From NCBI RefSeq assembly GCF_013122565.1, contig NZ_CP053258.1: a stretch of 64,000 nucleotides of DNA, one strand, 5' to 3'. This document shows positions 33,565-33,877 of this stretch, one piece after another (the first letter of the stretch is position 1; each line of letters begins with the position of its first letter). The position numbers and the translations under genes are program-made. The notes beneath the pieces were generated by a model. The model searched no databases. It had not been told where the DNA came from and was given only the letters and a program-made list of their open reading frames with translations. This DNA comes from Escherichia coli. Lineage in GTDB: Bacteria > Pseudomonadota > Gammaproteobacteria > Enterobacterales > Enterobacteriaceae.

Positions 33565-33576
33565 AAGTATGCACAC

Positions 33577-33600
33577 GGGCAGCACGACGCTGCCCGATTG
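33577..33600 (+). terminator. Putative terminator hairpin after dapD
   Basis: GGGCAGC-acgac-GCTGCCC 12 nt after the dapD stop, followed by a weak T-containing tract (gattgctttctgg). Confidence 0.45.
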
Positions 33601-33877
33601 CTTTCTGGTTCAGAATAATTCGTCCTACTCATTCTTCCTCCCCCTTTTTTAAATACTTCTTCATCTTGTTTCGGACTGTCATGTAATTCGCAAAACGAAG
33701 ATAAATGTGCTAATCCATCCCATGGAATATCGCCACAATAAAGCAGGTAATTTTTTGATTTTTACGCCATGATAGAAGTCTGGAAGAAAAAGGCTTTCTG
33801 CGATCACAGTCGAGCCGGGCGGGCCAGGCCAAATGCTAAAATAAGCACAATTTACTGACTCATTTTGAGGTAACGCT

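What the first reader, a model, noticed from the sequence alone, without database searches (positions are those of the whole stretch)
33565..33877. yaeI is absent between dapD and yaeH
In E. coli K-12, as I recall the map, a ~0.8-kb gene yaeI (Tat-signal metallophosphoesterase) lies between dapD and yaeH on the same strand. Here only 313 bp separate the dapD stop from the yaeH ATG. That interval has a dapD terminator hairpin and AT-rich sequence, but no ORF resembling YaeI. Flanking genes and nearly all other intergenic lengths match K-12, so this looks like a clean gene-sized indel in an otherwise colinear region.
Basis: partly seen in the sequence, partly recalled or inferred. Interest (0 to 1): 0.4.

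Follow-up and report, generated by a model that had tools for sequence, protein, structure and literature searches.

The report
Common yaeI-less dapD–yaeH allele
The window lacks the K-12 gene yaeI between dapD and yaeH, but this is the ordinary majority version of the locus in E. coli (about 62% of complete genomes), an old loss of a known accessory gene and not a clean or unusual deletion.

Summary
Observation confirmed. dapD ends at 33564, yaeH starts at 33878, the spacer is 313 bp, and no YaeI-like sequence occurs anywhere in the window. K-12 does carry an 813-bp yaeI there, in a 1027-bp spacer.

The difference is not a clean indel. 128 bp of the window (33600-33727) stand in place of 842 bp of K-12, with no direct repeats at the junctions.

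The two forms split E. coli almost exactly. The 128-bp segment is in 3338 of 5426 complete genomes and yaeI is in 2084. The window therefore has the majority allele. The allele is old: copies are 93-99% identical within E. coli, and it is also present in Escherichia sp. E1V33.

About 70 other Enterobacteriaceae species have an unrelated ~110-bp spacer. The window instead keeps the terminator and the yaeH-upstream spacer that accompany yaeI in Escherichia. That spacer also follows yaeI in Superficieibacter. The window allele is therefore best read as a secondary loss of yaeI.

The origin of the 108-bp filler (33600-33707) is unresolved. I found no gene, RNA family or repeat in it. yaeI is already reported as an accessory gene enriched in phylogroup A. 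Interest is low.

The parts
32740..33564 (+). dapD coding sequence (274 aa), left flank of the locus
   Evidence: ORF list. It is 100% identical at the protein level to K-12 DapD and carries the same annotation in RefSeq neighbours.
33565..33599 (+). Left flank shared by all Escherichia haplotypes. It contains the dapD intrinsic-terminator hairpin at 33576-33596. The T-tract is interrupted in this allele (ATTGCTTTCT, against ATTTTTTTGC in K-12).
   Evidence: 35/35 identical to K-12. Terminator scan. Fold -23 kcal/mol, z=-4.4. The hairpin is present in E. albertii, E. whittamii, E1V33 and EC7003. It is not alignable to the terminator of other genera.
33600..33707 (.). 108-bp haplotype-specific filler that stands where yaeI is in K-12. 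Its origin is unresolved and no feature was detected in it.
   Evidence: No significant similarity to yaeI or ORF X alleles, to the ~110-bp spacer of other genera, or to Superficieibacter yaeI and spacer. One copy per genome in 3338 E. coli genomes. No Rfam match at gathering score. Fold z-scores of +0.9 and -0.4. No gene called here in 9 assemblies.
33708..33727 (+). 20 bp shared (14/20) with the yaeI+ORF-X haplotype (Escherichia sp. MOD1-EC7003, E. coli GF43) but missing from the K-12-type haplotype
   Evidence: BLAST homology with L014 starts at interval position 144, against 164 for K-12. Alignment.
33728..33877 (+). Conserved yaeH-upstream spacer shared with all yaeI-bearing Escherichia. 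Most of it (33738-33877) is also homologous to the yaeI-yaeH spacer of Superficieibacter. It contains a putative extended -10 element TGCTAAAAT (33834-33842) and the yaeH Shine-Dalgarno GAGG (33867-33870).
   Evidence: 98.7% identical to K-12 and 93-97% to other Escherichia species, while flanking genes are only 85-91% identical. Homology blocks with S. electus of 81% over 42 nt and 76% over 50 nt. The promoter elements were read from the sequence and are inferred. A constitutive RpoD site is reported in the K-12 yaeI-yaeH spacer (PMC3946193).
33878..34264 (+). yaeH (DUF3461, 128 aa), right flank of the locus
   Evidence: ORF list. Pfam PF11944, E=2e-55.

Best explanation
The window carries the common yaeI-less haplotype of the Escherichia dapD-yaeH locus. 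The locus has two main forms that replace each other. One is dapD-terminator-yaeI-spacer-yaeH, as in K-12. The other is dapD-terminator-128 bp-spacer-yaeH, as in this window. The window form is most likely an old secondary loss. An ancestral Escherichia interval that contained yaeI lost the gene by a non-homologous deletion or replacement that left about 108 bp of unrecognisable filler. It kept the dapD terminator hairpin and the yaeH promoter-proximal spacer. The resulting allele has since been inherited, and probably exchanged by homologous recombination through the highly conserved dapD and yaeH flanks. It is not derived from the K-12 form by one deletion, because it keeps 20 bp that K-12 lacks. 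Functionally, the interval should still terminate dapD transcription and drive yaeH. What is missing is only the dispensable, sigma-E-regulon periplasmic phosphodiesterase YaeI. Shown here: the structure, the junctions, the frequencies and the homologies. Inferred: the polarity (loss rather than gain), spread by recombination, and unchanged yaeH expression.
For: Structure: shared 35-bp left and 150-bp right flanks, with 128 bp against 842 bp between them. Frequencies: yaeI in 2084 of 5426 complete E. coli genomes and the 128-bp segment in 3338 of 5426, each at one place per genome, summing to 5422. Age: window-type copies differ by up to 7% within E. coli, and the allele is 93.8% identical in Escherichia sp. 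E1V33, whose flanking genes are only ~90.5% identical. Polarity, point 1: 65+ species of Citrobacter, Klebsiella, Enterobacter and other genera have a ~110-bp spacer with a different terminator and no detectable homology to any part of the window interval. Polarity, point 2: E. albertii, E. whittamii and two other Escherichia species lineages carry yaeI between the same terminator and the same right spacer as in the window. Polarity, point 3: in Superficieibacter electus and a relative, a 64-65% identical yaeI sits in the same slot, and its yaeI-yaeH spacer is homologous to window 33738-33877. The window's right spacer is therefore a yaeI-associated sequence found without yaeI. Finally, window positions 33708-33727 are shared with the yaeI+ORF-X haplotype but not with K-12. 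Literature: yaeI is an accessory group enriched in phylogroup A (PMC5422975).
Against: The 108-bp filler cannot be traced to yaeI. The best collinear match (CTGGTT..CGTC..CCTTTTTTAAAnAC against yaeI codons ~29-45) reaches only z~2, with 6-17 of 200-300 shuffles equal or better, and it is not reproduced with other yaeI alleles. There is therefore no direct relic of the gene. Most Enterobacteriaceae and most E. coli lack yaeI, so simple counting would favour gain in the K-12 lineage. The ancestral-state argument therefore rests on an incomplete sample.
Confidence: 0.8

Rival explanations
1. The window shows the ancestral empty site, and yaeI was inserted later in the lineage leading to K-12 (gain in K-12, no loss here).
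For: About 70 non-Escherichia Enterobacteriaceae species lack yaeI at this site. 62% of E. coli lack it. Outside Escherichia, YaeI identity drops abruptly to 65% or less, as expected for an acquired gene.
Against: The window interval is not the ~110-bp empty-site spacer of other genera and shares no detectable homology with it. It carries the Escherichia-specific terminator and the right spacer that flank yaeI in E. albertii, E. whittamii and others. That right spacer also follows yaeI in Superficieibacter. An insertion would not replace 128 bp, and there are no target-site repeats.
Confidence: 0.12
2. The 108-128-bp segment is a functional replacement cassette, either a small protein gene or a small RNA, rather than inert filler. 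The candidate protein gene is the minus-strand 23-codon ORF running from 33632 to 33561, preceded by GGAGG.
For: The ORF has a strong Shine-Dalgarno-like GGGGGAGGAAGA just upstream of its ATG. The right half of the segment (33650-33727) is unusually conserved, with only 1 difference in ~67 bp against E1V33 although flanking genes differ by ~9.5%.
Against: The Shine-Dalgarno-like tract is a length-variable polypyrimidine/polypurine run and is deleted in alleles L086 and L092. Four of 13 alleles lack the start motif searched for (ATGAGTAGGA). Amino-acid changes are mostly non-synonymous (N to K or I, Y to K, C to Y, F to S). No gene caller reports a gene there in 9 assemblies or in RefSeq records. 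No Rfam family reaches its gathering score; the best is sroE at 21 bits against 51. Fold energies are no better than shuffles.
Confidence: 0.05
3. Assembly or sequencing artefact: a collapsed or mis-joined region removed yaeI.
For: None.
Against: The same arrangement occurs in 3338 independently finished E. coli genomes, and the full 313-bp interval is 99.4% identical in strain PE164.
Confidence: 0.01

Closest known systems
E. coli K-12 MG1655 dapD-yaeI-yaeH locus (b0166-b0164-b0163)
   Same: Same gene order, strands and neighbouring spacings. The dapD terminator hairpin is identical (35/35). The 150 bp upstream of yaeH are 98.7% identical.
   Different: K-12 has 842 bp (18 bp leader, the 813-bp yaeI and 11 bp) where the window has 128 unrelated bp. 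K-12 lacks the 20 bp at 33708-33727. The K-12 terminator has an uninterrupted T7 tract.
yaeI-less dapD-yaeH interval of most E. coli, for example O157:H7, O55:H7, Nissle 1917, strain Seattle 1946 and PE164
   Same: The same 309-314-bp interval with the same 128-bp segment at 93-99% identity. PE164 is 99.4% identical over the 313 bp. Nothing is annotated in the segment.
   Different: Only point substitutions and length variation of the TTCCTCCCCC tract. One strain, BS-04, has a more divergent 297-bp version.
Short ~110-bp dapD-yaeH spacer of Citrobacter, Klebsiella, Enterobacter, Kluyvera, Raoultella and others
   Same: No yaeI. dapD is followed directly by a terminator and yaeH.
   Different: The sequence is unrelated: a different hairpin (AAAAAGCGGG..CCCGCTTTTTTT) and a different yaeH upstream region. 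Only the ~12 nt around the ribosome-binding site and ATG align.
Superficieibacter electus glnD-dapD-yaeI-yaeH locus
   Same: The slot is the same one that yaeI occupies in K-12. Its yaeI-yaeH spacer is homologous to window 33738-33877, including the TGCTAAnAT motif.
   Different: It has yaeI (65% identical to K-12 YaeI) and a different dapD terminator.

Membership tests
Phosphodiesterase YaeI (NCBIfam NF008460 / PRK11340; Pfam PF00149 Metallophos with Tat signal) | An ORF or ORF fragment in the window with significant similarity to YaeI | tested here: not met
   tblastn of K-12 YaeI against the whole window gives a best E of 2.6. Within the 313-bp interval only a 6-residue match (WFELIR against WFRIIR) appears. 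nhmmer with a 6-allele yaeI profile finds no hit. Nucleotide local alignments are no better than shuffles.
E. coli yaeI-less dapD-yaeH haplotype | The single-copy 128-bp segment lies between the shared dapD terminator and the shared yaeH upstream spacer and is mutually exclusive with yaeI | tested here: met
   The segment is found at one place in 3338 of 5426 genomes and yaeI in 2084 of 5426. The alignment of 13 alleles is.
Rho-independent (intrinsic) terminator | G+C-rich hairpin followed by a T-rich tract immediately after the stop codon | tested here: met
   An 8-bp stem with 7 GC pairs and a 5-nt loop at 33576-33596, with tail ATTGCTTTCT. Free energy -23 kcal/mol, z=-4.4. Termination activity itself was not tested.
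Insertion-sequence or transposon-mediated indel | Target-site duplication, terminal inverted repeats or IS remnants at the junctions | tested here: not met
   No informative direct repeats at either junction in K-12, EC7003, GF43 or the window. The segment is single-copy per genome.
Repetitive extragenic elements (REP/BIME, IRU, box C, RSA) | Multiple dispersed copies per genome | tested here: not met
   Sensitive blastn of 33600-33727 gives exactly one place per genome in all 3338 genomes.
Known small RNA families (Rfam 15) | Covariance-model score at or above the family's gathering threshold | tested here: not met
   The best matches are sroE at 21 bits (gathering 51) and mir-1822 at 16.9 bits (gathering 73). 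Both lie over the terminator hairpin on the minus strand.

The most novel reading that the evidence does not exclude
The yaeI-plus and yaeI-minus forms are an ancient trans-species dimorphism of Escherichia. Both are present in E. coli and in separate named or unnamed Escherichia species. They are kept by balancing or niche-dependent selection on an envelope-stress (sigma-E regulon) phosphodiesterase. Under this reading, the unusually conserved right half of the filler plus spacer (33650-33877) acts as a regulatory region for yaeH.
Probability: 0.1. Interest if true: 0.35.

Novelty: already known. Interest (0 to 1): 0.1.

Why it matters
It matters little. The result shows that K-12 is not the typical E. 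coli at this locus, so a K-12-centred reading flags a normal allele as a deletion. YaeI is a dispensable accessory enzyme whose absence is the rule in most E. coli lineages. Among the strains seen here, the yaeI-less allele occurs in O157:H7, O55:H7, Nissle 1917 and ATCC 25922. One small useful by-product is that there are at least three structural haplotypes (yaeI, yaeI+ORF X, and neither) framed by conserved flanks. This makes the locus a convenient marker of lineage and recombination in Escherichia. It also warns that the K-12 yaeI-yaeH spacer is itself a shortened form.

Tried and rejected
1. I looked for YaeI elsewhere in the window with tblastn and found nothing.

2. I tried to derive the 108-bp filler from yaeI or ORF X. 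I used nhmmer with a profile and local alignments under four scoring schemes against 5-6 alleles with dinucleotide shuffles. The best result was z~2 and was inconsistent between alleles. The in-frame resemblance WF..IR..FFK..ILF to YaeI residues 31-55 is noted but not supported statistically.

3. I tried to derive the filler or the right spacer from the ~110-bp spacer of 30 other genera. Z-scores were 0.1-0.8.

4. I tried to derive the filler from Superficieibacter yaeI and spacer. Not significant.

5. I first read 33708-33758 as a 3' relic of the 236-aa ORF X of MOD1-EC7003 and GF43. I revised this after finding that the same sequence (ATAAAGCAGGTAATTTT...) follows yaeI in Superficieibacter, which has no X. 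ORF X more probably reads into a pre-existing spacer.

6. Minus-strand 23-aa ORF with GGAGG: rejected on conservation.

7. Small RNA or structured RNA: rejected.

9. ORF X has no Pfam, NCBIfam or PADLOC family.

10. The sigma-70 consensus scan found no promoter in 33450-33950. The extended -10 TGCTAAAAT was read by eye and is an inference.

Full report
**What is in the window**

The ORF map gives glnD at 30037-32709, dapD at 32740-33564 and yaeH at 33878-34264, all on the + strand. cdaR, degP and dgt follow on the - strand. It holds a strong hairpin at 33576-33596 with a T-rich tail (-23 kcal/mol, z=-4.4). No ORF resembles YaeI. tblastn of K-12 YaeI against the whole 64-kb window finds nothing better than E=2.6.

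**Is the K-12 comparison right?**

Yes. In K-12 (MG1655, and the K-12 derivative 7FA fetched as L001) an 813-bp gene annotated "phosphodiesterase YaeI" lies between dapD and yaeH on the same strand, in a 1027-bp interval. YaeI matches Pfam Metallophos, weakly matches the TAT_signal model, and matches the NCBIfam YaeI equivalog. The neighbouring spacings are the same in both: glnD-dapD 30 bp and yaeH-cdaR 88 bp.

**It is not a clean indel**

Alignment and BLAST show two shared stretches:
- The first 35 bp after the dapD stop (33565-33599, 35/35 identical).
- The last 150 bp before yaeH (33728-33877, 98.7% identical).

Between these, 128 bp of the window (33600-33727) stand opposite 842 bp of K-12. 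The left junction falls inside the terminator's T-tract, which reads CCCGATTTTTTTGC in K-12 and CCCGATTGCTTTCT in the window. No informative direct repeats flank either junction. This argues against a simple slipped deletion or a transposon-type insertion.

**How common is it?**

Counts among 5426 complete E. coli genomes:

| Feature | Genomes | Copies per genome |
|---|---|---|
| yaeI DNA | 2084 | one place (median; up to 2) |
| Window's 128-bp segment | 3338 | exactly one place |
| Sum | 5422 | |

The locus is thus an almost perfect two-allele system, and the window carries the majority allele (62%).

- Carriers of the window type include O157:H7, O55:H7, Nissle 1917 and strain Seattle 1946.
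- yaeI carriers include K-12, BL21 and O111:H11.
- A published pan-genome comparison already lists yaeI as an accessory orthologous group enriched in phylogroup A (PMC5422975).
- No annotation pipeline calls a gene in the yaeI-less interval.

**How old is it?**

- Window-type segments differ by up to 7% among E. coli.
- The allele is also present, at 93.8% identity, in Escherichia sp. E1V33. That organism's flanking genes are only ~90.5% identical to the window.
- yaeI itself is deeply divergent within E. coli, with identity bands running from 80-90% up to 99% or more.

Both alleles are therefore old.

**Which state is derived?**

*Other genera.* About 70 species representatives of other Enterobacteriaceae genera (Citrobacter, Klebsiella, Enterobacter, Raoultella, Kluyvera and others) have a dapD-yaeH spacer of only ~110 bp, with a different terminator and no yaeI. 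No part of the window interval is detectably homologous to that short spacer apart from the ~12 nt at the ribosome-binding site (z=0.1-0.8 against shuffles). The window is therefore not an "empty ancestral site".

*Within Escherichia.* E. albertii, E. whittamii, the SCPM-O-B-8794 species representative, MOD1-EC7003 and E. coli GF43 all carry yaeI. In each it lies between the same terminator hairpin and the same right-hand spacer as in the window.

*Superficieibacter.* YaeI homologues fall from 81-100% identity in Escherichia to 64-69% and then 59% or less elsewhere. The 64-65% homologues, in Superficieibacter electus and a relative, sit in exactly the same slot: glnD-dapD-yaeI-yaeH. Their yaeI-yaeH spacer is homologous to window 33738-33877, with blocks of 81% over 42 nt and 76% over 50 nt. 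The shared sequence includes ATAAAGCAGGTAATTTT..TTTACGCCAT and the TGCTAAnAT motif.

*Conclusion on polarity.* The right-hand spacer of the window is a yaeI-associated sequence present here without yaeI. The most economical reading is secondary loss of yaeI on the lineage of this haplotype.

**Relation to the other Escherichia haplotypes**

MOD1-EC7003 and GF43 have an extra 236-aa ORF ("X") between yaeI and yaeH. RefSeq annotates it as hypothetical, and it has no Pfam, NCBIfam or PADLOC family.

The window shares 20 bp (33708-33727, 14/20 identical and contiguous with the conserved block) with these X-bearing loci. K-12-type loci lack those 20 bp. The window allele is therefore not a one-step deletion derivative of the K-12 form.

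I first read 33708-33758 as a 3' relic of X. However, the last ~30 nt of X coincide with spacer sequence that is also present in Superficieibacter, which has no X. X more probably reads into a pre-existing spacer. The 20 bp may belong either to X or to a longer ancestral spacer.

**The filler (33600-33707)**

Its origin is unresolved.
- It has no significant similarity to any yaeI or X allele, to the short spacer of other genera, or to the Superficieibacter locus.
- A collinear, in-frame resemblance to YaeI residues ~31-55 (WF..IR..FFK..ILF; CCTTTTTTAAAnAC) reaches only z~2 and is not reproduced with other alleles. It remains a lead, not a result.
- The segment is single-copy and matches no Rfam family at gathering score.
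- It does not fold better than shuffles.
- A minus-strand 23-codon ORF (33632 to 33561) preceded by GGAGG fails a conservation check. The Shine-Dalgarno-like run is a length-variable homopolymer tract that is deleted in some alleles, and the substitutions are mostly non-synonymous.

I treat the filler as inert.

**Likely function of the interval as it stands (inference)**

- The hairpin at 33576-33596 terminates dapD, perhaps less efficiently than in K-12 because the T-tract is interrupted.
- The conserved 150 bp upstream of yaeH carry its promoter. An extended -10 TGCTAAAAT lies at 33834-33842. A constitutive RpoD site is reported in the K-12 yaeI-yaeH spacer (PMC3946193).
- This stretch is more conserved across Escherichia species (93-97%) than the flanking coding DNA (85-91%), which suggests constraint.
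- What the strain lacks is YaeI, described as an rpoE-regulon member (PMC5105897) and named among output-enriched genes in a T7 INSeq screen (PMC7414163). YaeI is evidently dispensable, since most E. coli lack it.

**Verdict**

The feature is the ordinary, majority, already-documented yaeI-less allele. It is not a clean indel and it is not peculiar to this genome. Novelty: already known. Interest: low.

The most interesting thing met on the way lies outside the finding. It is a ~1.25-kb patch of glnD (about 31180-32450) that is at most 92.2% identical to all 5426 complete E. coli genomes, yet almost entirely synonymous. The patch is shared by other public assemblies.

Noticed in passing
window 31180-32450 (3' part of glnD): A ~1.25-kb patch of glnD is only 83-95% identical to the otherwise closest E. 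coli, which is 98-100% identical on both sides. It is at most 92.2% identical to any of 5426 complete E. coli genomes. The protein is nevertheless 96-100% identical, so the differences are almost all synonymous. The patch is closest to E. coli (88-89%), then to other Escherichia (86-87%), then to other genera (~80%). It looks like a recombinational import from an unsampled Escherichia-like lineage. The same allele (98-100%) occurs in assembly GCA_013058505.1. The identical GlnD protein is indexed in 123 blocks, none with a contig longer than 200 kb..
   Followed up: partly
L014 2172-2882 and L084 2501-3211 (not in the window): A 236-aa ORF X lies between yaeI and yaeH in Escherichia sp. MOD1-EC7003 and E. 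coli GF43. It occurs in full in only 1 of 5426 complete E. coli genomes. It has no Pfam, NCBIfam or PADLOC family. Its last ~30 nt coincide with the conserved yaeH-upstream spacer.
   Followed up: partly
L096 3501-4328; L097 3501-4364: Superficieibacter electus and a relative carry a 64-65% identical yaeI in the same dapD-yaeH slot, followed by yaeH and an M60 peptidase/mucin-binding gene. The slot is thus occupied in a second genus, while ~70 other Enterobacteriaceae species have the short spacer.
   Followed up: partly
window 33633-33650: The polypyrimidine tract TTCTTCCTCCCCCTTTTTT varies in length among yaeI-less alleles, with indels of 1, 3 and 5 nt. Strain BS-04 has a much more divergent 297-bp version of the interval.
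   Followed up: partly
window 34265-34352 (yaeH-cdaR spacer): This convergent-gene spacer is 88 bp here and in K-12 but 53 bp in several E. coli assemblies (L086, L087, L092, L084) and 52 bp in L099. This is a ~35-bp indel polymorphism around the hairpin ATTCCCCTC...GAGGGGAAT. Identity to L099 drops to 81% there.
   Followed up: no
window about 26178-26180 (frr-pyrH spacer): The closest complete genome, F9792, has ~145 extra bp here relative to the window. This may be a repetitive extragenic element present or absent.
   Followed up: no
yaeI alleles in E. coli genomes: yaeI is unusually divergent within E. coli. Of 2084 copies, 1440 are 99% or more identical to K-12, 308 are 95-99%, 261 are 90-95% (for example BL21 at 94.2%) and 75 are 80-90%. 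This is far more spread than in the flanking yaeH-cdaR genes.
   Followed up: no
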